NCBI GenBank assembly: GCA_054661495.1
Contig: BAAFSQ010000311.1
Location: forward strand, 1 to 11,195
Length of the DNA: 11,195 nucleotides
DNA from: Zygophlyctis sp. KS116
Taxonomy: Eukaryota > Fungi > Chytridiomycota
Direction of reading: 5' to 3'
Position 1 is the first letter of the stretch; every line of letters starts with the position of its first letter. A program made the position numbers and the translations under genes. Under the pieces are notes generated by a model. That model had not been told where the DNA came from, ran no database searches, and worked only from the letters and a program-made list of their open reading frames with translations. Below, in pieces: positions 1-11,195 of this stretch.

Positions 1-3000
1 ATTGAAACAACCTGTTTGCTGATATTATCCTTACTGTTAGATATAGTAGTATCCTTGTTAGCCACGGCTTCAATTTTACTATTAATTCTTTCCCTCGGGC
101 TATCAACTGTTGAAACAGCCTGTTTGCTGATATTATCCTTACTGTTAGATATAGTAGTATCCTTGTTCGCAGGATGGCATTCTTGTGAGTCTGTATCACG
201 GCTATGAGAATATCTCTCAGCAGCATCAGGTTGTATATGTGGTGATGTATTTCTGCCTAAGATATTAATTGGCGCGGACATAATATTTGATTTCATTTTA
301 GATTGAGTTGAGTTCGCTCTAGTATCTATGACGGATTTCATGTTATCATGAATAAGATTTTTCTCTTCCGTGATTGATTCGCTATCGATTGCCATTACAA
401 CATCTTCTGGTACTAATGTGTTTAAAACGGGTCGCTTTCGAGCCAGCCCGTTTACGCTTGATAGAGACGATGATCTACTGCGTCGTAATTCGTCCAAGGA
501 TGATCTGGCGGATTTGGGCCGCATTTGTAAACTTGCTTGAAGATCACACACACTGCTTGCCTTTTTTTGAGCACTTGAATCTAAAAAAGGCAGATTACAT
601 GATATTTCTGAAGAGGAAGACTGCTTACTTTTTTTTGGTTCTTTTTTATTTCCCATAAAAGTCGGACGAGGACTTGATATTCGAGAACTATGTAATCCAG
701 ATTTTGAGTTATTCTTATTTTCTTCCATATGCGACATCCGCTTGAGATATTCTGTACTAAGGTATGAAAGATCTAGTGGTAGTTTTGTATCGACCGAAAG
801 ATAGTTTTGAGCTATAATAGAAGCCAATTCTTCCTGATCAGATTGTGCATCAGACTCGTCTGTACAGAAAGAATCTTCATTTCTAAAAGAATTTTGAAAC
901 TGTTCATAATTTTCATCCAATGGCTGGTTCGTGAAAATTATCATTCCTACATCCAAATCATCATTTACTCCTAAACGTGCAGGCTCATTAAAATCTTCGT
1001 CAACTTCACTAACGAGTTCGAGATTTGATATATGCTTAAAAATTATGGATGAGCTGCGGCTATGAGACGATGTTTCGCTTGTGGATGATTTCCTAATAGT
1101 TTCTTCTTTTTGAATGAATGTGTGATTCACGGCAGAAGAAATATTATCATTTTCTGTCACATTTGTTAGTTCATTCTCTTTGTGACTGGAATTTTGAACA
1201 TTAGAAATAAAATTTCCAGATTTAACCGATGCACTATTTTCATGGTTATTCAGGAACGAAACCACAGTCCCATGAGCATGATTTATCGAGGTCTTATAAT
1301 TTTGTCGAGTGTCTGGGAAATTCAATAAGTCTTTTGCCGCATCTCTAAATTGATGAAGATCAGTATCCACCTGGTCGAGGAGTTTATCAGTAATCCTTTG
1401 TGCTTCTTTCTTTTTTGTAAAGATCTTTTCCAATCCACTTTCGTAAGTAGCTTTCGTATGTTCAAACGAGATTCCAAGCCTCTTTCTCCTTTCGTTTAAT
1501 TCCTTGATGAATCCTGCTAAGCGAGGATGTTGATCAATTTTGTCGTCAACTTCCAAAGAATCTAGAATGCGGTAACAAGTATTCAGTGCGGCTTTATTGA
1601 GGTCTAAGAATTAATATAACTTTAAATAAATAGTTACTTTTCAACGGTGAAGAATTATTTGATTGCTTAACTTTTGAGTCAAAATTGTTGGATAATAGTG
1701 TAAAACACATGAGTCGAAGTTTCCAATATGAATCTAGACGCATCCTCTGTAATAATGGCTCACAGATTGTAACTACACGTGCATCTTTAAGTATGATATC
1801 TGAACTATACTGTGATTTAATTATACCTGAAATTATAGATCCCAATAATTTTCTATGAGAAATTTGAAATTTTGAATTTCCAGATTCAAGCTTAATATAA
1901 TATCCGTTCAGAACCGAGACAAATTGATGCAGAGATTCGTATCTGTAGTCATCCAAGTTAACATCATAGATTTCACAGTCCAGAAAAACGTGCTTAGAAA
2001 GATGAAGCGTCCATAAGTATATTGATTCTCGAAATCTTTTCGCGATTATACTCCTTGTATTAGCTAGATTATAAATACCTTTTCTCGTATATAATGAAAT
2101 TAAGATATTTTAATAGCCAATAAAATGGGGATTCTAATTTTAAATCATTGTCCTTCATGATTCTGGATGCATAGCAATTACCTCGAATGAAATGACAAAA
2201 TATGTTGTTTTCACCATGATTAAGACAATACAATGCTAATAGCCTTGAAGTATGGTCTCGAACAAAATAATTTGGTGAATTTAAAAACGTCAATAAAAAA
2301 TTTAAATCTGTGTCGCTCTAGATTTTAAGGTATTGGTATTAATTACATTTTTGGGTTTTAGAGACCTATACAAAGTTTCAATTGCAAAGCAGTAAAGATT
2401 GACGCATTCTTTCTCCATCTGTTGATTAGAAAAATACGATGCGGATAATGAGTTGTTTGATATCTTTTGGAGCCATTTTTGTGCAGTTTTTTCACCTTTT
2501 GAATCTAGAAATAAATTTGAAAACAAGATTACTCTGTGATAGTTCAATCATTACATACATGCATTCAGCCTGATTTGCAGGATGAGTACATATTTTTTCA
2601 AGAAGCGGAAAGAGAATGCTCTCCAATATCAATCCAAAATGTTCTGATTCATTTACAAATTGTAAAGTTTGAACACTTGCTGCCCGATCCCACTCCAGCA
2701 CTGAAAAGTACTTTAGTTTTAAGTTTCTAACCAATAATTCTGTAATAATATCTATAAATGAGATCAAATTTCTCAAGCCCTTTCCGGTTCCTCCGGACTT
2801 ATCAGGTGAATTGTGTATATTTTTATCAGCCATTTCACATAGATTTTCTTTAATAGATCTGGAAATATTAATTGCTAAAGAAAAGCATTCCAGATAATTG
2901 GAAAATATCAAAAGATATTCTTTTACTATCATAACACTGAACATGAAGGGATTATGAAAATATTTCATTTTCTTTGGCGGATCTGAAAGGCCGATACTTA

Positions 3001-3675
3001 TCTTGAGAAATATTTTACGATCTACAAGTAATTTTCCAAGTGTCTAAAGTATTAATCAATGGAATTTACCCTTGATTGAGTTGAAGAGTATCCATTAGAA
3101 TTATTGGACAGGCTGCATAGATTCCTATCAAATTCCTCCAAGATTAGTAATGCCATACTGTTTGTTAAATCTAATGAATGAGTCCAGCATTCTAATATCG
3201 TTTTAAAAGACTCATGCGCCTTATCGCAGTAACAATCAATCAACACAGTTGCAGAGTCCAATAGAATCTTTGATAAAAGCGTAGCTGAATTCCCAACGTC
3301 CGAATATATTTGATTATCCTGTACAGACATTTCGTATGCTAATGTATGATGTATTTTTCTAGCCAAAAATGATAAGAGACCCATCAGGAGAAAATGTAAC
3401 TTTTGTATCACGACGATATTGATTGGGACGATGACAACTTGTCTTTGCGCCAACAAAGAGAAATTCAGTCCGGCAAATACAGTTAACAACAGAAGCTCTC
3501 TTTTTTTACATGAATGCTGGCGATATGATGGAAACTGCCTAAGCAGCGGCGGTATAAAGATATCAATCTTATCCTTGAAGAAATTAGTATTATCCGATAT
3601 TGTCCAGTCTAAAAACAATTCCAGAATCATTTCCATTTTGGATGTATGCCAGAGGCTGCTTCTATCAATCCTCAT
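1..3675 (-). CDS. Large uncharacterised protein (>1178 aa, 3' end outside window): Leu/Phe-rich, probably helical N-terminal ~700 aa, then a Ser/Asn/Glu/Lys-rich low-complexity region
   Basis: Exons 3675-3070, 3043-2559, 2533-2347, 2317-2079, 2053-1638 and 1603-<1. Five GT-AG introns of 25-34 nt join the track ORFs 3052..3675, 2492..2968, 2302..2547, 2069..2293 and 1594..1956 in frame. They lead into a stop-free 1603-nt frame (NLNKAALNTCYRILDSLEVDDKIDQHPRLAGF...) that the track omits because it has no stop in the window. I do not recognise the family. Confidence 0.8.
2..170 (-). repeat. Coding tandem repeat, 108-nt (36-aa) period, truncated by the window edge
   Basis: 2-59 matches 110-167 with one mismatch (A10/G118). 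The unit reads ANKDTTISNSKDNISKQAVSTVDSPRERINSKIEAV, followed by ANKDTTISNSKDNISKQVVS. Confidence 0.93.
1604..1637 (-). other. Spliceosomal intron, 34 nt, gene A intron 5 (phase 1)
   Basis: gtaactatttatttaaagttatattaattcttag; removal joins ...SPLK-N-LNKAAL into the long open frame. Confidence 0.85.
2054..2078 (-). other. Spliceosomal intron, 25 nt, gene A intron 4 (phase 2)
   Basis: gtatttataatctagctaatacaag, with a GCTAAT branch-like site; gives YEKRSIIAKRF. The adjacent GAG (ending 2051) is an in-frame NAGNAG alternative. Confidence 0.8.
2318..2346 (-). other. Spliceosomal intron, 29 nt, gene A intron 3 (phase 0)
   Basis: gtaattaataccaataccttaaaatctag; gives KPKN-SDTDLNFLLTFLNSPNY. Confidence 0.85.
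2534..2558 (-). other. Spliceosomal intron, 25 nt, gene A intron 2 (alternative candidate 2505-2532, 28 nt)
   Basis: gtatgtaatgattgaactatcacag restores the frame, but so does the neighbouring gtaatcttgttttcaaatttatttctag. Confidence 0.55.
3044..3069 (-). other. Spliceosomal intron, 26 nt, gene A intron 1 (phase 0)
   Basis: gtaaattccattgattaatactttag; gives TQSR-TLGKLLVDRK, in frame with ORF 2492..2968. Confidence 0.87.
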
Positions 3676-3732
3676 TGCTAGAAATTTAACCGATCATATT
3701 CTCCGGATAACAGTTTGGTAATATGATGCGTT

Positions 3733-3738
3733 TTTATT
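3733..3738 (-). promoter_or_regulatory. Candidate polyadenylation signal AATAAA of the MFS gene
   Basis: AATAAA lies 4 nt after the TAA stop, inside a 67-nt intergenic gap. AT-rich context lowers specificity. Confidence 0.5.
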
Positions 3739-3742
3739 ATTG

Positions 3743-5408
3743 TTATTCGTGATTCAACTGATATGATTGAAAGAAGATGATCAAGTTTAGTAATGATACC
3801 AGCAGAAATGTGAAATTGAAGTCAAAAGGAAAGTTTAAGGTTGAAGTTAACGACCATGACCATACCACGCCTCCAATAGCTGGTCCAATAGATCTAAGAA
3901 GTTAATATTTTAAAATTTGGATTGAATCTAAAATCCAAAAACCAAAGTGATATATTACCTGACAAATGCAGCCGCGACTTGACCAATACCATGCACGGTT
4001 CCAAGACATTTAAGACTAGGACTAGAATCATTCACCAGAATCATTGCGCAAACATATCCAAAACAACATGATACAAGTCGCACAGATAGTAAAACAAATA
4101 GACCAGCGTGAATATAAAATCGGTTTTGGTCTGCTATTATACCTTTATCATCAGCTAAATATCGTGCCAAAATATTTAAGCATGGAATTGTTGGAACACA
4201 AAGAATCATCATTCCTACAGAAAGCCTAAATGTTCTAACAATTCCTAGCCATCTTTCTACGACAGGATAGACAAATAATTGAATCGCTATTTGAATTATT
4301 CCTAGTGATGACATAACCAATCCAAACTCTTTTGCAGTCATGGATAATCCTCCTGTTAATATAGGAGTAGCCACAAAAAGTGCAAGTACTTCATCAAAAA
4401 TTATATTAACAAAGGCCCACATTGCGTATGCAAATATACTTCTGATTACATCTTTTGTCAGTGTTTCTGAGAGTGTAGAGTAAGGACTTTGATTTTCAAC
4501 AAGTGTACGACTTGATTCTTGTTCATGATCTAGTAATAGTCTTTCAGTAGACTCTGAAATGGATAAAGATTTTGTCTTTCTGCTCGCCAATGTTTCTTCT
4601 AGGAAATTGAATCCTAGAAGTACTCCCAAAACACTAAAAGATGAACCGAATAAACAAGGAAGAAAGTATGGATACTTTTTAAAGATTACAGAGTCTTTAA
4701 AAAAGTATGGAATATTTTCAACGGGTTTCGCTAAAATACCTCCCATTGCAGGGCCAACTACCAATTAGCCTTTCAAAAACATACTTATTTGTCCAATTCC
4801 AAATGAACTTTCCCATAATGCAAAAGCGAATCCTCTATTTGTAGAATCTGTAATTTCTCCAATCATACTCTTTACAACGCCAATCGTTCCATTCAAAAAC
4901 CCACAAGCTGATCTCATGATTAACGCTTGATAATAAGTAGAACTCATTCCAAATAATGCGCAAGTTATTGCATTCCCTGCCATTGATATTAAGATTACAG
5001 ATTTCCTTCCAAAACGATCAGAAACCCAAGACCAAGGCAATGAAGTAAAGAATTGAGCTACAGAAAACGATGATGCCATTAAACCAATGTAAGGACCCAA
5101 TGCTCTTGGATCATCCGTTACATTAAAATCCTTGACCATGAAATACACTACAACTTAGGAAATATAATTACTAAATGGGAATAGAACAGAGAATTGGATC
5201 ATTTCTACAAGATTAATTTATATTTGATCTTACCAACCAATGTAACCAAACAGATCATAAACATTTGTTTTTTGGGAAGCGGTGTCTGACGCTGAGGCCC
5301 TCCGGACTCTTGATCATCTTCCAAATCTATTGGGACTTCTTCAAAAAGATCAAATATTGAAGATCCTAGAGATAGCTGAGATATGCTTTTGGAGTAGACT
5401 AAATTCAT
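3743..5408 (-). CDS. Major facilitator superfamily transporter, DHA1-like (yeast YCR023C / plant ZIFL-type), 506 aa
   Basis: Exons 5408-5234, 5204-5172, 5147-4785, 4757-3959 and 3893-3743 total 1521 nt (507 codons including stop). It has TPLPKKQ before TM1, EMIQFSVLFPFMYFMVKDF, MFS motif A (SDRFGRKSV), motif C (GQIIGPAMGGILA), YPYFLPCL, and C-terminal GTVHGIGQVAAAFVRSIGPAIGG. The first in-frame ATG is 5408. Confidence 0.93.
3894..3958 (-). other. Spliceosomal intron, 65 nt, MFS intron 4 (phase 2), with internal hairpin
   Basis: gtaata...ttaacttcttag; restores the conserved FVR-SIGPAIGG. Inverted repeat at 3916-3923/3932-3939. Confidence 0.9.
4758..4784 (-). other. Spliceosomal intron, 27 nt, MFS intron 3 (phase 1)
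   Basis: gtatgtttttgaaaggctaattggtag; contains an in-frame TAA; removal restores GQIIGPAMGG. Confidence 0.93.
5148..5171 (-). other. Spliceosomal intron, 24 nt, MFS intron 2 (phase 1)
   Basis: gtaattatatttcctaagttgtag; contains an in-frame TAA; removal restores LFPFMYFMV. Confidence 0.92.
5205..5233 (-). other. Spliceosomal intron, 29 nt, MFS intron 1 (phase 1)
   Basis: gtaagatcaaatataaattaatcttgtag; gives LVTLVEMIQF, followed by a 33-nt exon. Confidence 0.9.
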
Positions 5409-5499
5409 AATATTCTCCTGATCGGGCTGACGTCGTGGCTTACTCAACCTGTCAAAACACTACTTGGGCCAGCACGAAATATTTATCCAAAACATTCAA

Positions 5500-5505
5500 T
5501 TTATT
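5500..5505 (-). promoter_or_regulatory. Candidate polyadenylation signal AATAAA of the Ebp1 gene
   Basis: AATAAA directly abuts the TAG stop (5506-5508). Confidence 0.55.
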
Positions 5506-6688
5506 CTAAACTGCAGCTGCAGCCTTCTTCTTTTTAGATTTTTTACTTGCTCTAACTGGTGTTTTTAATAGTGCGATAATAGATTCATCCTTGATCTCCA
5601 AACTAGACTTGTAAAGAGCTTCATCCCATGGAAAAGATGTGATTTTCAATGGACCAGAAGGCATTAAAAGAATAGTAAACATAAAATGAGCAACATGAGC
5701 CTCTTTGCTCTCAAATAATACCTGATATGGAGTAACTAATCCATGCGAAGCACATTCCATAATTCCTAATCTTCCCTTCTTTTCATCTTCAAAAGAACGT
5801 AGAGTGAATGCCATATTACCATAATTCTTTGATACATCTGAAAATACAGCACGAGATGCCTTCATTTTCAAATTATAAACTGAATCAGAATTACGTTTAT
5901 AAATTGTAGTTCTAGTATCTAATACTTTTGGCTTTCCATCTCCTGTAGAAACCAAAATATCAACAGAATATGCTTCTCCTTCATTAAATGTATAAGTTTC
6001 AGTATCTTTTCTTTGATTTTCTGAAGGATTTAAAATGATTTGTTTTGGACCATCTAATATATTTCTTAAAATTTGATGAGTCAACATTCCTAATTTTAAT
6101 ACTTTTAAACTTTACCTTCGACTGGATTACAACCATATTCATCAGAAATCTTTTGAATAGCTTCAGAGACTTCCCAATTAGTTTTTCCTGGCTTGATTAA
6201 GCGGATAGCAGCTTCTGCTGCATTATATGCTGCCATTGTAACGTCTGCCTTTTTACCAGTGACTGGATTTTCCTAAAATTGTTCAATTTTTTTCTAAAAA
6301 ATACCTTTGAAGCTCCAACCCAAGTTGTAGTTGCTACTTGAGCAATATACCCATCAATATGAACTCCCAATTCCACTCTTACAGCTTCCCCATCTTGAAT
6401 TTCCCAAGAATATTCAGGATCAGACACCAATGGAGATAAGTGACAAATTGCCCCTTGAATACTAACAGATGTAGGGAATGCAATCCCCTTCTTAACATCT
6501 CCTTTACCATAAACGGTTTTAACTGCATCGGTAATAAATGCATCACCGGCAGTGCAAAGTTGTCCAATCTTTTCACCAGCTTTGATCATTCCCAAAACAT
6601 GAATCAGGGCTCTGTTAGCAATGTCTGCAGCAGTCTGATATTTAGTAACATTAACAGGATTCAATGCATTATCCTCTGTGTCTGACAT
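5506..6688 (-). CDS. PA2G4: Proliferation-associated protein 2G4 / Ebp1 / curved DNA-binding protein Cdb4 (non-catalytic M24 methionine-aminopeptidase fold), 374 aa
   Basis: Exons 6688-6305, 6272-6116 and 6089-5506 total 1125 nt. Family motifs: VTKYQTAADIAN, KGIAFPTSVS, LGVHIDGYIA, VTGKKADV, EGMLTHQ, YSVDILVSTGDGK, YNLKMKASR, AFTLRSFEDEKKGRLGIMEC, FTILLMPSGPLKIT, and a Lys-rich C-terminal tail (KKSKKKK). Confidence 0.96.
6090..6115 (-). other. Spliceosomal intron, 26 nt, Ebp1 intron 2 (phase 1)
   Basis: gtaaagtttaaaagtattaaaattag; restores the conserved PVEGMLTHQ. Confidence 0.95.
6273..6304 (-). other. Spliceosomal intron, 32 nt, Ebp1 intron 1 (phase 0)
   Basis: gtattttttagaaaaaaattgaacaattttag; restores VGASK-ENPVTGKKADV. 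Confidence 0.95.
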
Positions 6689-6754
6689 TTTTTTAGCGGC
6701 CTTGACCTGCTGTCCGCAGCAACGTCATTCAGTCTCCTCATTATTCTTTTTTAA
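6689..6754. promoter_or_regulatory. Putative bidirectional promoter, 66 nt from ATG to ATG
   Basis: Lies between the divergent start codons of Ebp1 (6688) and gene D (6755). It has a GC-rich core flanked by T-runs, a dyad TGCTG-TCCG-CAGCA (6708-6721), and ACGTCA (6722-6727). Confidence 0.65.
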
Positions 6755-9700
6755 ATGGATGAATCAAGACATGGATCGGATGATGAGTCTGAAGAATTTA
6801 ATTCAAGTACCTCTTCTCTAGATCTAAAGAAATCAAATGCTCCAATAATACCAAGAATTCAATCAGTTAAAGATCATCGGGCGTTTGATGCTCAAGGTAA
6901 TTATTACATGATGCATTTAATGCAATCAGTCATAAATGCTTAAATTATGTCTAACGGTTAGAGTCTAAAGAAATTAATCCAATACTTGATGCACAGATTT
7001 TAGAGTTTGCGCCAATACTAGATAAAATAGATTTGGGATCTAATACATCTTTGGGATTTGATTTTCAAAGGCCAGAAAATAATGATCCTACTACAATTTC
7101 TAGTCATAACTTGTCGAGTATGAAGTTGGATGATCTTTTAAAATCAGAAAATTCTGATTCAGACTTCAAGCATCAGACTCAAAGTGTGGGACAATCTTCT
7201 CCTCAAGGTACTAATTTAATTTTACTGAAAATTTCTTAGAATCAGAAGAATTTCAATCTAGTAGCTCTTCAATAAATATCGGGAATACTAGTAAATTCAT
7301 AGAGTTAACTCCACGTGTTAAAACTGATGCAGTTGGGGATTTAGATTTATTTAATTTAGCTCTCAACTTAAATGATGAGGCAGTCTCAAGACAAGGTATT
7401 CTTTAAATAATAATTATTAAAAGAGTCTGAGGAATTTAGTTCAAATAATTCTTCTCTAGATATTATTCCAAATGCAATAACTCAATCTCATGCACCACGT
7501 ATAACAAGTGTTTTGGAAACTGGTAATATTGCAAAAGAGTTGAAAGAGATACTAAATTTAAATTCAGAAACAAGTCAAGTCTTTGAAAAGGTTTATTTGA
7601 CAACTGTGCCATCTCAAAATATGGATTCACCTCAAGGTAATAATTTTAAGTTTTTAAAAAAAGAATCTGATGAATTGAATTCAAGTAGTTCTTCAATAGG
7701 GCAGTACAATTTAAATTCTACGCCTTTAGTACCTCGCACTGTTCAAGTTGAGCCTCTGAATGAAAATGTTACGAAAGACAAAGTTTCAGAGGTTGCTGAT
7801 CAAGGAGAAGAAATGATTAGAATAAGGTCGTTTGAAAATTTAAAGTCGGAAAATAGCTCTCCTGCAGGTATATTTTTTAAGTAAAATGAAATAGAGTCAG
7901 AAGAATTCAAGTCTAGTAATTCTTCAATTGATCTTGTACTTTCAAAAGATAAAACTGTTTTTATTAACAGAAAAAGTATGGATTTAACTAGCCAAAATGA
8001 AAATGCATTAAAGGCTAATGAAAATCCAAATGCAACTGTGCCATCTCAAAATATGGATTCACCTCAAGGTAATAATTTTAAGTTTTTAAAAAAAGAATCT
8101 GATGAATTGAATTCAAGTAGTTCTTCAATAGGGCAGTACAATTTAAATTCTACGCCTTTAGTACCTCGCACTGTTCAAGTTGAGCCTCTGAATGAAAATG
8201 TTACGAAAGACAAAGTTTCAGAGGTTGCTGATCAAGGAGAAGAAATGATTAGAATAAGGTCGTTTGAAAATTTAAAGTCGGAAAATAGCTCTCCTGCAGG
8301 TATATTTTTTAAGTAAAATGAAATAGAGTCAGAAGAATTCAAGTCTAGTAATTCTTCAATTGATCTTGTACTTTCAAAAGATAAAACTGTTTTTATTAAC
8401 AGAAAAAGTATGGATTTAACTAGCCAAAATGAAAATGCATTAAAGGCTAATGAAAATCCAAATGCAGTTGCTAATGAAAATAACCCAAATATCGCTCTAA
8501 AAAGCACCGCTCCTCAAAATGGATTCCCGGAGAAAGCCATTATGGATAAAAAAGTACAATTTTCTACTGATTCTACCGGGCCTGATAACCAAGGCTCAGA
8601 ATCAAAATCCAAATTTACGGATAAAGCCAAAAAGCTTCGACCACGCAACTCTGCAGCAATTGATCCACCCACTCGCCTGTCCATGCTAGGCTCGCCTAGT
8701 GAATCATCTTCTGTGGAGTCTACTTCAGAAGAAGATGAACCAGAACAGCCATTAAGTTTAGCCGATGAAAGGGAACAACCAGCAATCAAAAATGATTTTC
8801 ACGGTAAATATCACAGATTTTTTGTCCCAAGGTCTGCTACCAAGCCAAAACTATCGAGTCCAACTGATGATGTCGGGTATTATTTTGTATTGTATGATCA
8901 GAAATGCTATTTTTCTGGTTTCTTATTCAAAAGGAATGAACTAGGAGCAAATGGAAATCTTTTGAACAAGACCCATACTATAAGGCAATATGGGACTGTA
9001 GAACGTGGAGGCGAGTGGGTGAAGTATTGGGCAGAAATTATCGGGGGACTTTTACTATTATGGAGAGTGCCTGCTGAGTTGCAGGCACATATATATCCGA
9101 AAAAAACAAATCCTACAGATCACGAAAAACATCCGAAAAATCCATCTGAAAAAGGTATTGCCAGTTTAATTCAAGCTGAATTATTTCCCTCTTTAGAGTG
9201 CATCGAATCTATCAAATTGAAATCAACTCCATTTATTTTGCAACTAATCAATTCTTCAACTGAATTAAAGACTTCTTCTTTTAGCTCATTATATGCGGAG
9301 GATATTCTACCGCCACCTTTACCATTCACTTCAATATTCACTGTTTCGAATCAGGGACGCAATAGATATAAATTTGCTGCACCTGCGTTCATAACTTCAA
9401 ACCTCTGGGTCAGGGCGATCCAATTATCTATTTTCGAAAATGATCAAATTAATTTCATTTTTTCAATGAAATTACTAAAAGAGCCACGGTATTTGAATGT
9501 ATGGACAGATCTAAGTATACCTCCATTTAGTTTGGGTATAAAAGGCCATTCTAAACCTTTTGAATGTCTTGTTGATGCTCAGCACGGTTTGGAAATGCAA
9601 TCGAAGCGATATTATTGCATTGTATCTCATGAAAAACTTTCTGGGCACACAAAAAACGAAAACAAGGCTTCAAATAGAAAATCAACTTTATTTGGTCATG

Positions 9701-11195
9701 TACAAACTGATGCAGTTGCCGATGCAGCTAGAGATTCAGAATCCGTCACGGAAGAATTCAAAGGAATGATTTTACTCTACGATGATGAGGCTGATCATGA
9801 CAGGCGACACTCGCCTTCAGTCAAAATTGAGGATGTTCACTCAGCATTCTTAATCTGGCCGAGGTCTAAAATATCTTCAGAAAACGAGTTTGTTACATCC
9901 ATTAAATTATATGGGAATATTAGTTACATCCCCACAGCTGAAGTCAAGAAAAAAAAGGACAGAAAAAGTAGATTGACCTGGAATGAAGTCGAGAAGTCCA
10001 ATGAAAAGTCTAAAGAAAATCCCGTTCCTGCGATATCTCAGGATGGGTGCTCTTTTCTAACTCTTTCGTTTGAAAATACTCAGCTTTCTCTAAGATTTTT
10101 GGTTTCCATTTGGAATTCCTTTGGGATTGAAACGATAATTGAATCATGTTATGAGAAGGAACATTTATGGAATAATCCACCTGTGGGATGGGGAAATTTG
10201 TCTCTAAAAGTAGATGAATTATTCGGTGATTTTGATCTATCGAATATTAGAAATTCGTACGATTCATTTGATAGAATGCTGCATGATAAGTTGATGATTT
10301 TAAAAATTGGTCTGCCAGAAGAATGGATTACAGGCTTAAACAGCCTGGGAGAATTTCATGACAATGCTGAAAAGGAAGAAGTATTGATCAAGGCAGACAC
10401 CCTGATTCAATCGGCCATGGATCTTCCCAAAGATTCTATTATCCCTGTATGGCTAGATGAAGAAATGAATAGTCGAAACATAAATCATAAGGATAGAAAG
10501 AGTGGAGCCGAGGTTATTGAATCGGAAAACAGGCCAGATATTAATAATGGCCAGTCTGATATCAGAATTCCTCCTTCCAGAGACAATTCATTGCTTATAA
10601 ATTTTGCTTTTGATAAGAGTAATTTTCAGCTCCTGGAAGCCGGTACACAAATAAAAAGCGTTGAAAAAAAACAGAAGAATGACGGCAAATTAAAACATAT
10701 CTCATATCTCACTAGTAACGATTCGCAATTAGCATTAGAACGTGAATTTTCTTCATCTTCTTCTTCAGCAAATACTTCTTCATCTGAAGAATTACCCAAG
10801 GAATCTGATAAGCCATGTATGTCGGATCTTACGATTACAATTCCAAATGGGCTAAACATAGATACTCATGGTCTGATTTCAAGCTGGACTGAGGAGGAGC
10901 ATATGCGCTTCCAAAGCTATGTGGCCTGGATTACCAAGGAATGTGTAAGAATGATTAATTCTAATATTAGGGAAATCATAATATAAATGGAGGAATAGAT
11001 AATCTCGATCCAGATAAGCTCATTTTCGAATCGAAATCTTTGCTAGGGACGGGTTTGAATCAACGGCCTAAAAAAGAGGCTATTCATGGGCCTCTTATTT
11101 CTGCAATTCCAAAAAATAACAATAGTTCGGTACTAGATGATATGAAAAACACACCTTTAAATGAAGGGCTTCTAGGCAATCACTCCAGATCTAGC
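6755..11195 (+). CDS. Skg3/Caf120-like PH-domain protein with a long repetitive acidic/Ser-rich N-terminus (>1394 aa, 3' end outside window)
   Basis: Exons 6755-6896, 6962-7207, 7240-7395, 7424-7636, 7664-7867, 7895-8068, 8096-8299, 8327-10944 and 10971->11195 give a stop-free frame. The region ~8905-10130 has YFSGFLFKRNELGANG, WVKYWAEIIGGLLLLW, IFTVSNQGRNRY, WVRAIQLSIFE, KRYYCIVS, IEDVHSAFLIWPRS, IKLYGNI and LRFLVSIWNSFG. These parallel, in order, the blocks I recall for fungal Skg3/Caf120 PH-like domains (recognition from memory, not a search). Confidence 0.8.
6897..6961 (+). other. Spliceosomal intron, 65 nt, gene D intron 1 (phase 1), with internal hairpin
   Basis: gtaatt...ctaacggttag with a canonical CTAAC branch site; gives DAQ-ESKEIN; stem spans 6906-6950. 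Confidence 0.88.
7208..7239 (+). other. Spliceosomal intron, 32 nt, gene D intron 2 (phase 1)
   Basis: gtactaatttaattttactgaaaatttcttag; gives SPQ-ESEEF. Confidence 0.9.
7396..7423 (+). other. Spliceosomal intron, 28 nt, gene D intron 3 (phase 1)
   Basis: gtattctttaaataataattattaaaag; gives SRQ-ESEEF. Confidence 0.87.
7637..7663 (+). other. Probable intron, 27 nt, gene D intron 4 (phase 1, in frame, no stop)
   Basis: gtaataattttaagtttttaaaaaaag, in the same CAAG|gt...ag|AATC context as its neighbours; not required for the frame. Confidence 0.72.
7868..7894 (+). other. Spliceosomal intron, 27 nt, gene D intron 5 (phase 1)
   Basis: gtatattttttaagtaaaatgaaatag; contains an in-frame TAA; gives SPA-ESEEF. 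Confidence 0.88.
8069..8095 (+). other. Probable intron, 27 nt, gene D intron 6 (duplicate of intron 4)
   Basis: Identical to 7637-7663. Confidence 0.7.
8300..8326 (+). other. Spliceosomal intron, 27 nt, gene D intron 7 (duplicate of intron 5)
   Basis: Identical to 7868-7894; leads in frame into the 858-aa track ORF. Confidence 0.87.
10945..10970 (+). other. Spliceosomal intron, 26 nt, gene D intron 8 (phase 0)
   Basis: gtaagaatgattaattctaatattag with a CTAAT branch-like site. Removal bypasses the stop at 10984-10986 and opens 75 codons (GNHNINGGIDNLDPDK...) to the window end. Confidence 0.85.

What the first reader, a model, noticed from the sequence alone, without database searches (positions are those of the whole stretch)
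6755..8367. Modular array of symmetric phase-1 exons, each intron splitting the Glu codon of an ESEEFxSSxSS motif, fused to a Skg3/Caf120-like PH module
Seen: all seven introns from 6897 to 8326 sit in the same context, (CAA/GCA) G|gt...ag|A[AG] TC[TA]. The internal exons are 246, 156, 213, 204, 174 and 204 nt, all multiples of 3. Most begin ES[ED]E[FL]xSSxSS[LI], several have PR[IVT] 23-25 residues in, and they end SPQ/SRQ/SPA, while the exon middles are largely unrelated. An eighth copy lies intron-free in exon 1. The following 2.6-kb exon needs no intron. Inference: one ancestral intron plus flanks was amplified repeatedly, giving intron gain by tandem duplication. Any exon could be skipped in frame, so this may be a tunable multivalent array of an acidic/Ser short linear motif (phospho-site or docking motif). 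I do not know of this architecture in Skg3/Caf120 proteins.
Basis: partly seen in the sequence, partly recalled or inferred. Interest (0 to 1): 0.78.

Follow-up and report, generated by a model that had tools for sequence, protein, structure and literature searches.

The report
Duplicated-exon motif array in chytrid gene
A gene of a freshwater fungus likely grew its front end by repeatedly copying an exon together with a tiny intron, and half of the eight copies carry a short acidic, serine-rich motif predicted to be a phosphorylation-switched handle for the endoplasmic reticulum, while nothing yet shows the exons being skipped.

Summary
The exon/intron pattern is real, with three corrections. 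(1) 7601-8466 is an exact 432-bp tandem duplication, so there are five distinct introns, not seven; its junction also stands in an independent metagenome. Its breakpoints lie inside exons, so same-phase, 3n exons follow automatically from in-frame duplication and are no sign of exon skipping. (2) Introns of 24-34 nt are normal in this genome. (3) The gene likely continues past the window after a further 26-nt intron. The large exon encodes a chytrid Skg3/Caf120-like twin-PH module; none of 67 homologs has the motif pattern. The 12-codon motif is conserved at protein level between copies (pS 0.55, pN 0.15), while exon middles and introns no longer align. Four of eight copies score 2.0 on the published phospho-FFAT matrix; a column permutation gives P 0.001-0.004, post hoc. 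Best reading: a lineage-specific, constitutively spliced, disordered arm of repeated phospho-motifs, possibly a multivalent VAP/ER tether. No RNA covered the gene. The scan noted similar exon-duplication arrays in other fungi, none on look-alike DNA.

The parts
6755..6896 (+). Exon 1; start codon; motif copy U1 at 6785-6820 without a preceding intron (phospho-FFAT score 2.0)
6897..6961 (+). Intron 1, 65 nt, phase 1
   Evidence: stops in all read-through
6962..7207 (+). Exon 2, 246 nt; degenerate motif copy U2 (score 12.5)
7208..7239 (+). Intron 2, 32 nt, phase 1
7240..7395 (+). Exon 3, 156 nt; motif copy U3 (score 2.0)
7396..7423 (+). Intron 3, 28 nt, phase 1; 4 differences in a related strain, GT and AG kept
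7424..7636 (+). Exon 4, 213 nt; motif copy U4 (score 3.5)
7637..7663 (+). Intron 4, 27 nt, phase 1, in frame and stop-free
7664..7867 (+). Exon 5, 204 nt; motif copy U5 with Leu for Phe (score 6)
7868..7894 (+). Intron 5, 27 nt, phase 1; indels of related alleles fall inside it
7895..8068 (+). Exon 6, 174 nt; chimeric exon made by the 432-bp duplication; motif copy U6 (score 2.0)
8069..8095 (+). Intron 6, exact copy of intron 4
8096..8299 (+). Exon 7, exact copy of exon 5 (score 6)
8300..8326 (+). Intron 7, exact copy of intron 5
7601..8466 (+). Exact tandem duplication, period 432 bp (378 coding + 54 intronic), breakpoints inside exons with 2-3 nt of microhomology
8327..10944 (+). Exon 8: motif copy U8 (score 2.0), linker, twin-PH module, low-complexity tail
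8513..8526 (+). Possible remnant of a unit end (resembles the end of exon 4) with no donor after it; weak
   Evidence: (P 0.039 vs 1000 shuffles)
8905..9480 (+). First PH-like domain with following helix (approximate limits from the model)
   Evidence: (PF00169, E 0.087)
9559..10125 (+). Second PH-like domain, Pfam PF25381 PH_26 (E 1.8e-5, 24.9 bits, cutoff 27)
10744..10767 (+). Further motif of the same pattern in the tail (phospho-FFAT score 2.0), kept in allele P0068
10945..10970 (+). Likely intron 8, 26 nt, phase 0; the gene continues in frame beyond the window end
   Evidence: ORF 10971-11195 open at 3' end

Best explanation
The 5' third of this chytrid Skg3/Caf120-like twin-PH gene likely grew by repeated in-frame DNA duplication of an exon-plus-intron block into a constitutively spliced, predicted disordered arm of eight units, whose conserved head motif is predicted to be a phospho-FFAT that would, once phosphorylated, bind the ER protein VAP while the PH domains would hold the protein at a membrane. 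Steps. Shown in the sequence: the layout, the exact 432-bp duplication with exon-internal breakpoints, the twin-PH module, protein-level conservation of the 12-codon motif, and its fit to the published matrix in 4 of 8 copies. Inferred with high confidence (about 0.85): the older units arose the same way, by unequal crossing-over between units, and the introns are spliced. Inferred with moderate confidence (about 0.75): selection keeps the motif for a protein function. Predicted and untested (about 0.35-0.4): that function is phosphorylation-dependent VAP/Scs2 binding, giving a multivalent ER-to-cortex tether whose reach and avidity change with unit number.
For: Duplication; junction contigs in X1, X2, X3 (flagged possible source) and in metagenome X5 on a path with 6 differences in 431 nt. 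Introns real: 11 neighbour introns are 24-34 nt (one 65) and restore open frames, 6 of 11 phase 1; 6 of 82 short-intron sites versus 23 of 979 exon sites differ in strain X4 (P 0.020); all 4 gap letters of a divergent contig lie in intron 5; allele P0069 reads as a 1-nt deletion in intron 5 while P0068 keeps the downstream frame. Motif selection: pS 0.55, pN 0.15 over 10 pairs of 5 copies; neutral simulations reached the observed 0.71 identity in 0 of 300 runs at 40% and at 50% nucleotide difference, 1 of 300 at 30%. Phospho-FFAT: matrix from PMC7705450 Table EV4; U1, U3, U6, U8 score 2.0; permuting alignment columns gives P 0.00095 (19 columns) and 0.0038 (12 columns); core positions 3 and 6, which the matrix leaves nearly free, are the most variable ones. 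PH module. Yeast Skg3 is listed at cell periphery, bud tip and neck (table in PMC12135193).
Against: The FFAT idea was formed after seeing the motif, the copies are one ancestral event, and a shuffled region of this composition gives at least one hit in 11% of runs; about one human protein in ten scores under 3 (2,079 of 20,373). No copy has an aromatic residue at position 3; U5/U7 lack the Phe (score 6), U4 scores 3.5, U2 12.5, and the newest duplication added one scoring and one non-scoring copy. No family-wide signal: 15 of 66 homologs have a hit versus 5-13 in five shuffles; 1 of 19 N-termini versus 0.54 expected. In strain X4, 3 of the 13-14 amino-acid changes fall in motif codons, no visible depletion. 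In fission yeast most VAP interactors lacked a typical FFAT and low scores were not enriched (bioRxiv 10.1101/2023.01.12.523872, passages). With the 65-nt intron included, the intron excess of differences is not significant (P 0.26). No RNA covers the gene.
Confidence: 0.36

Rival explanations
1. Same origin, but the motif is a general multisite phosphorylation cluster (acidophilic CK1/CK2-type relay; consensus recalled, not from a call) or a docking site for another partner, regulating the PH protein's localisation or turnover, with no VAP binding.
For: Motif conserved at protein level; Ser spacing i, i+3 after an acidic stretch; many chytrid homologs have Ser/Asp/Glu patches near the N-terminus without an aromatic residue; no family-wide FFAT signal.
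Against: Does not explain the retained Phe in 4 of 5 distinct non-degenerate copies or the column order.
Confidence: 0.29
2. Near-neutral expansion of a disordered linker. The flanks of the intron stay alike because unequal crossing-over and conversion recur there, or because purine-rich exon starts help to splice very short introns; the protein motif has no function of its own.
For: Middles do not align (1 of 15 pairs at P<0.05); the module sits on a long branch; exon pN/pS about 0.4 between strains and no depletion of changes in motif codons; the window's two 432-bp copies are identical while X5 differs by 1.4%.
Against: Synonymous sites in the motif are near saturation while amino acids are kept; introns are no more alike than shuffles (0 of 10 pairs), which argues against homogenisation across them.
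Confidence: 0.2
3. One reading: regulated exon skipping (or retention of the stop-free 27-nt introns) tunes the number of motifs, giving an isoform repertoire.
For: All internal exons are 3n and phase 1-1; introns 4 and 6 can be read through in frame; retaining them would replace the residues before the motif with a basic stretch.
Against: Symmetry follows from in-frame duplication; introns are 27-32 nt; retention exceeds skipping in nearly all surveyed eukaryotes and 3n enrichment of skipped exons is largely an animal feature (PMC6142364 passages); the 3n length of intron 5 is not kept in allele P0069. No RNA either way.
Confidence: 0.11
4. The array is not a spliced part of the PH gene (separate transcript, decayed 5' region), or the repeat is inflated by amplification or assembly.
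For: No RNA evidence; no homolog of the array outside alleles of this gene; depth of the repeat contig is not twice its flanks in X2 (63.5 vs 78.6 and 118); X4 and X7 contigs run across 7601 unbroken at depth 3-4.
Against: One open frame after splicing seven consensus introns; junction in four runs, one of them not flagged as a source; strain differences respect the intron/exon model.
Confidence: 0.04

Closest known systems
Internal tandem duplication of symmetric, disordered exons carrying repeated short motifs (Schad et al. 2013, PMC3632108; passages read)
   Same: Runs of same-phase exons in a disordered region, made by internal duplication, with one short motif repeated and a proposed gain in avidity.
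   Different: Described for human genes; here a chytrid with 27-32-nt introns, exon middles no longer alignable, and one duplication that covers two units with breakpoints inside exons.
Skg3/Caf120/Tph3 twin-PH family (PMC5091641 passages; Pfam PF25381)
   Same: Two PH-like domains, low-complexity flanks; 67 homologs, the named ones from chytrids.
   Different: About 630 residues precede the PH module, against a median of 124 and a maximum of 375 in 19 N-termini measured; none of 67 homologs has the motif pattern; the nearest fetched locus has one 33-nt phase-0 intron and no array.
Phospho-FFAT motifs binding VAP (Di Mattia et al. 2020, PMC7705450; passages, Table EV4 whole, two rows of Table EV2); tandem motifs in RMDN3 and Chlamydia IncV (PMC7610837 passages)
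   Same: Acidic/Ser tract, Phe at core position 2, Ser at 4, small residue at 5, Ser at 7 and 8, in a predicted disordered cytosolic region.
   Different: No aromatic residue at position 3; four scoring copies in an array plus one in the tail, one per exon; binding untested.
Intron gain by tandem genomic duplication (PMC3443670 passages)
   Same: DNA-level tandem duplication increases intron number.
   Different: That mechanism creates new splice sites from a duplicated exonic AGGT; here existing introns are copied, which that review excludes from its count. Only the origin of the first intron is open.
SCPP and Sparc-L acidic phospho-motif repeats (PMC9122587 passages)
   Same: Acidic Ser-phosphorylation motifs multiplied by tandem duplication; mostly one intron phase.
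   Different: Secreted vertebrate mineralisation proteins, phase 0, Fam20C sites; unrelated in sequence and location.

Membership tests
Skg3/Caf120/Tph3 twin-PH proteins | PF25381 (PH_26) domain | tested here: inconclusive
   Query 24.9 bits, E 1.8e-5, under the cutoff of 27; 18 of 22 homologs scanned (of 67) pass the cutoff; Atlas top hits 0.92 to PH_26 clusters.
Skg3/Caf120/Tph3 twin-PH proteins | A second, N-terminal PH-like domain | tested here: met
   Model (pLDDT 75.9) has two beta-rich domains each ending in a helix; the listed Foldseek hits are PH-domain structures; PF00169 weak (E 0.087).
Skg3/Caf120/Tph3 twin-PH proteins | Sequence homology to named family members | tested here: met
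   67 hits to E 0.001, 42 to 1e-10; cluster of P0010 is named Skg3/CAF120-like PH-like domain protein.
Skg3/Caf120/Tph3 twin-PH proteins | Cortical or bud-neck localisation, lipid binding | not testable with these tools
   Known only for yeast Skg3 (table in PMC12135193).
Tandem exon duplication of symmetric exons | Homology between adjacent exons | tested here: met
   65-72% DNA identity over the first 57 nt in 7 copies; exact copy of exon 5; middles mostly unalignable.
Tandem exon duplication of symmetric exons | Same intron phase and position in the unit | tested here: met
   7 of 7 phase 1 in the Glu codon.
Tandem exon duplication of symmetric exons | Junctions used in RNA | tested here: inconclusive
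   The one RNA run listed covers only the neighbouring gene; indirect support from allele differences.
Phospho-FFAT | Matrix score under 3 with Ser/Thr at core position 4 | tested here: met
   4 of 8 copies score 2.0; the others 3.5, 6, 6, 12.5.
Phospho-FFAT | Cytosolic, unstructured context | tested here: inconclusive
   Composition rich in S, N, E, D with no Pfam match above noise; no disorder predictor or fold of the array was run.
Phospho-FFAT | Conservation across species | tested here: not met
   No enrichment in 66 homologs or 19 N-termini; conserved only between copies and alleles of this gene. No sister-species ortholog with the 5' region was found.
Phospho-FFAT | Phosphorylation-dependent binding to a VAP MSP domain | not testable with these tools
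Intron gain by tandem genomic duplication (new splice sites) | Intron sequence derived from a duplicated exonic segment | tested here: not met
   Introns 6 and 7 are copies of existing introns; the five distinct introns are 27-65 nt, AT-rich, and unlike each other. The origin of the first intron is not resolved.
Alternatively spliced cassette arrays | Skipping isoforms in RNA | not testable with these tools
   No RNA cover of the gene.

The most novel reading that the evidence does not exclude
An uncultured chytrid lineage has turned a Skg3/Caf120 twin-PH protein into a multivalent, kinase-switched ER-to-membrane tether by multiplying a phospho-FFAT one copy per exon, and the array is still changing in copy number in wild populations, so that contact-site valency and reach evolve by exon duplication (and perhaps by retention of stop-free 27-nt introns that would blunt single motifs).
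Probability: 0.25. Interest if true: 0.68.

Novelty: new variant of a known kind. Interest (0 to 1): 0.4.

Why it matters
The mechanism (internal exon duplication in a disordered region) is known, mainly from animals, and on that alone the finding is ordinary. Two things lift it. It holds old and very recent steps of one array side by side in a fungus with 27-nt introns, showing that phase symmetry arises without any need for alternative splicing. And it gives a concrete, cheap test of a function for a poorly understood protein family: if the motif binds VAP when phosphorylated, Skg3/Caf120-type twin-PH proteins would be linked to ER contact sites and the array would be a natural series for how FFAT valency evolves.

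Tried and rejected
No whole genome is held for this window, so genome-wide intron statistics, paralogs and the organism's VAP could not be examined. Word-based search with the last exon found nothing; the profile-free HMMER search did. Searches with array exons found only alleles of this gene (1 of 117 candidates) or nothing (0 of 102; weak evidence). The metagenome scan gave 10 loci, none from this species; only L001 has enough 5' DNA in a near relative. RNA: 1 of 24 listed runs is RNA, share 0.07, and it lay only on the neighbouring gene; absence of cover says nothing. Contig depth cannot give the copy number of the 432-bp unit (repeat/junction 88/40, 63.5/43.4, 350/269); the 100% identity of the two copies may partly reflect assembly collapse. 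An inverted join in X3 looks like an amplification chimera and was not used. Homology of the introns to each other: 0 of 10 pairs above shuffles. Conventional FFAT-like scan (acidic position 4, improvised from the phospho matrix): no hit in the query. The tree is the quick version and places the gene only loosely; the N-terminal lengths printed in that call are inflated by the profile and were dropped. No complex prediction was run. Gao and Lynch 2009 and Slee and Levine 2019 are not held, so I could not check whether yeast Skg3/Caf120 was already listed as an FFAT candidate; no paper search combined Skg3 with FFAT, so I make no claim that this is absent from print.

Full report
1. Observation. 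Splicing them gives 1332 open codons from ATG 6755. The motif heads exons 2-8 and occurs once inside exon 1. This is not chance: seven copies share 65-72% DNA identity with the exon 1 copy over 57 nt. The splicing is inferred, since the only RNA run among 24 listed lay on the neighbouring gene alone.

2. Bases 7601-8466 are two identical copies of 432 bp. Introns 6 and 7 are therefore copies of 4 and 5, exon 7 is exon 5, and there are five distinct introns and six distinct motif copies. The breakpoints lie inside exons with 2-3 nt of microhomology; the unit holds 378 coding and 54 intronic bases and so keeps the frame. Any such in-frame duplication yields 3n exons between same-phase introns, so the symmetry needs no selection for skipping. 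The junction is present in contigs of X1, X2, X3, all flagged as possible sources, and of metagenome X5, on a path with 6 differences in 431 nt, so it is not an artefact of one assembly. Contigs of X4 and X7 cross 7601 without a break, at depth 3-4, which may mean that some strains lack it or that the junction was missed. Copy number cannot be read from contig depth. The large exon is followed by a likely 26-nt intron (10945-10970) and the frame then runs off the window.

3. The short introns are credible. Eleven introns inferred in the three neighbouring genes are 24-34 nt long (one is 65), all start GTA, and restore open frames, including in a conserved M24-family gene; phases 0/1/2 are 3/6/2. 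In strain X4, 6 of 82 sites in introns 3-5 differ against 23 of 979 exon sites (P 0.020; P 0.26 if the invariant 65-nt intron is added), none at GT or AG, and exon pN/pS is 0.42 (one codon with two changes stays Leu, which would lower it slightly). A more distant contig in X6 has all four gap letters inside intron 5. Allele P0069 ends in a way that is explained by a one-base loss in intron 5, while P0068, from a contig of the same length, keeps the downstream frame. Introns 4 and 6 can be read through without a stop.

4. The protein. The last large exon hits PF25381 below its cutoff and Skg3/Caf120-like clusters in the Atlas at 0.92. HMMER finds 67 relatives; those with names are chytrids, and 18 of 22 scanned pass PF25381. 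The model has two PH-like domains, matching the twin-PH family of Caf120, Skg3 and Tph3 (PMC5091641, passages). A quick tree puts the gene on a long branch in a clade of unnamed environmental sequences beside Batrachochytrium, Globomyces, Boothiomyces and Kappamyces (support 88); holders are freshwater and estuary samples. None of 67 homologs has the motif pattern, a motif HMM finds only alleles of this gene among 77 stored proteins, and the nearest locus with 5' DNA, L001, has a 134-residue N-terminus with one 33-nt phase-0 intron. Several homologs come from gene callers that ignore introns, so their N-termini may be cut short. The array looks lineage-specific.

5. The motif is kept at protein level. 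Over the five distinct non-degenerate copies, the 12 motif codons show pS 0.55 and pN 0.15. The copy in exon 2 is degenerate and was left out of this pooled figure. Exon middles align in 1 of 15 pairs at P under 0.05 (the Pro-Arg box) and introns in 0 of 10. Because the motif was chosen for being conserved, I simulated neutral copies and took the best 12-residue window: the observed identity of 0.71 was reached in 1 of 300 runs at 30% nucleotide difference and in 0 of 300 at 40% and at 50%. Against this, strain X4 shows no depletion of amino-acid changes in motif codons (3 of 13-14), on small numbers.

6. What the motif may do. Read from the Glu before the Phe, the core fits the phospho-FFAT definition. 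With the matrix of PMC7705450 (Table EV4 read whole), copies U1, U3, U6 and U8 score 2.0, U4 3.5, U5 and U7 6, U2 12.5, and a further site in the tail (10744-10767) scores 2.0; the paper's cutoff is under 3. Permuting the columns of the five-copy alignment reaches the observed mean in 0.095% (19 columns) or 0.38% (12 columns) of 20,000 trials. The test is post hoc, the matrix is lax for Ser-rich sequence (11% of shuffles give one hit; 2,079 of 20,373 human proteins pass), homologs show no enrichment (15 of 66 against 5-13; 1 of 19 N-termini against 0.54), and in fission yeast FFAT score did not predict VAP partners (10.1101/2023.01.12.523872, passages). I give VAP binding about 0.35-0.4, a general phospho-cluster or other docking role about 0.3, near-neutral growth 0.2.

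7. Exon skipping. Nothing here tests it. The prior is low: retention exceeded skipping in all but one species, and 3n enrichment of skipped exons is largely an animal feature (PMC6142364, passages). If isoforms exist, retention of the stop-free 27-nt introns 4 and 6 is the likelier kind.

8. Comparison and verdict. Runs of symmetric disordered exons made by internal duplication, with repeated short motifs, are described for human genes (PMC3632108, passages). Copying existing introns is not 'intron gain by tandem genomic duplication' in the strict sense (PMC3443670, passages). Earlier notes of this scan report exon-duplication arrays in other fungi and none on look-alike DNA or on FFAT arrays. 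The Skg3/Caf120 paper search listed 25 of 65 papers, none on such an array by title or abstract start; two papers that could bear on novelty were not held. The architecture is a known kind in a new setting; the phospho-FFAT array on a twin-PH protein is an untested but testable variant. Interest 0.40.

Noticed in passing
window 1594-6689 (minus strand) and 10945-10970: The genome has very short introns: 10 of 11 neighbour introns are 24-34 nt, unusual for a fungus whose proteins group with chytrids (comparison recalled).
   Followed up: partly
P0009 and P0068/P0069: A second, divergent member of the same twin-PH family (P0009) lies on a contig of the same length (24,106 nt) as the allele of this gene, probably a nearby paralog; its N-terminus lacks the motif.
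   Followed up: partly
window 1-207: Direct repeat of about 105 nt (two copies) in the coding frame at the 3' part of the long minus-strand gene, another in-frame internal duplication.
   Followed up: no
window 3-3693 (minus strand): Long gene (over 1150 codons with five short introns) without a Pfam match; helical N-terminal part, low-complexity Ser-rich C-terminal part.
   Followed up: partly
window 5506-6689 and 3746-5412 (minus strand): M24-family gene (proliferation-associated 2G4-like, name recalled) divergently adjacent to the array gene with only about 65 nt between the start codons, followed closely by an MFS transporter: a very compact genome.
   Followed up: partly
X6 record 15, laid on 7801-7962: A contig about 85% alike around intron 5 that diverges on both sides; a related species or a further unit with a different middle.
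   Followed up: partly
window 7883 in X4 and X6: The in-frame stop inside intron 5 is absent in one related allele, so there both 27-nt introns could be read through.
   Followed up: partly
L001 825-1000: The nearest relative has one Phe followed by a Ser/acidic run near its N-terminus (score 3.5; 29% of shuffles reach it), a possible single ancestral form of the motif.
   Followed up: partly
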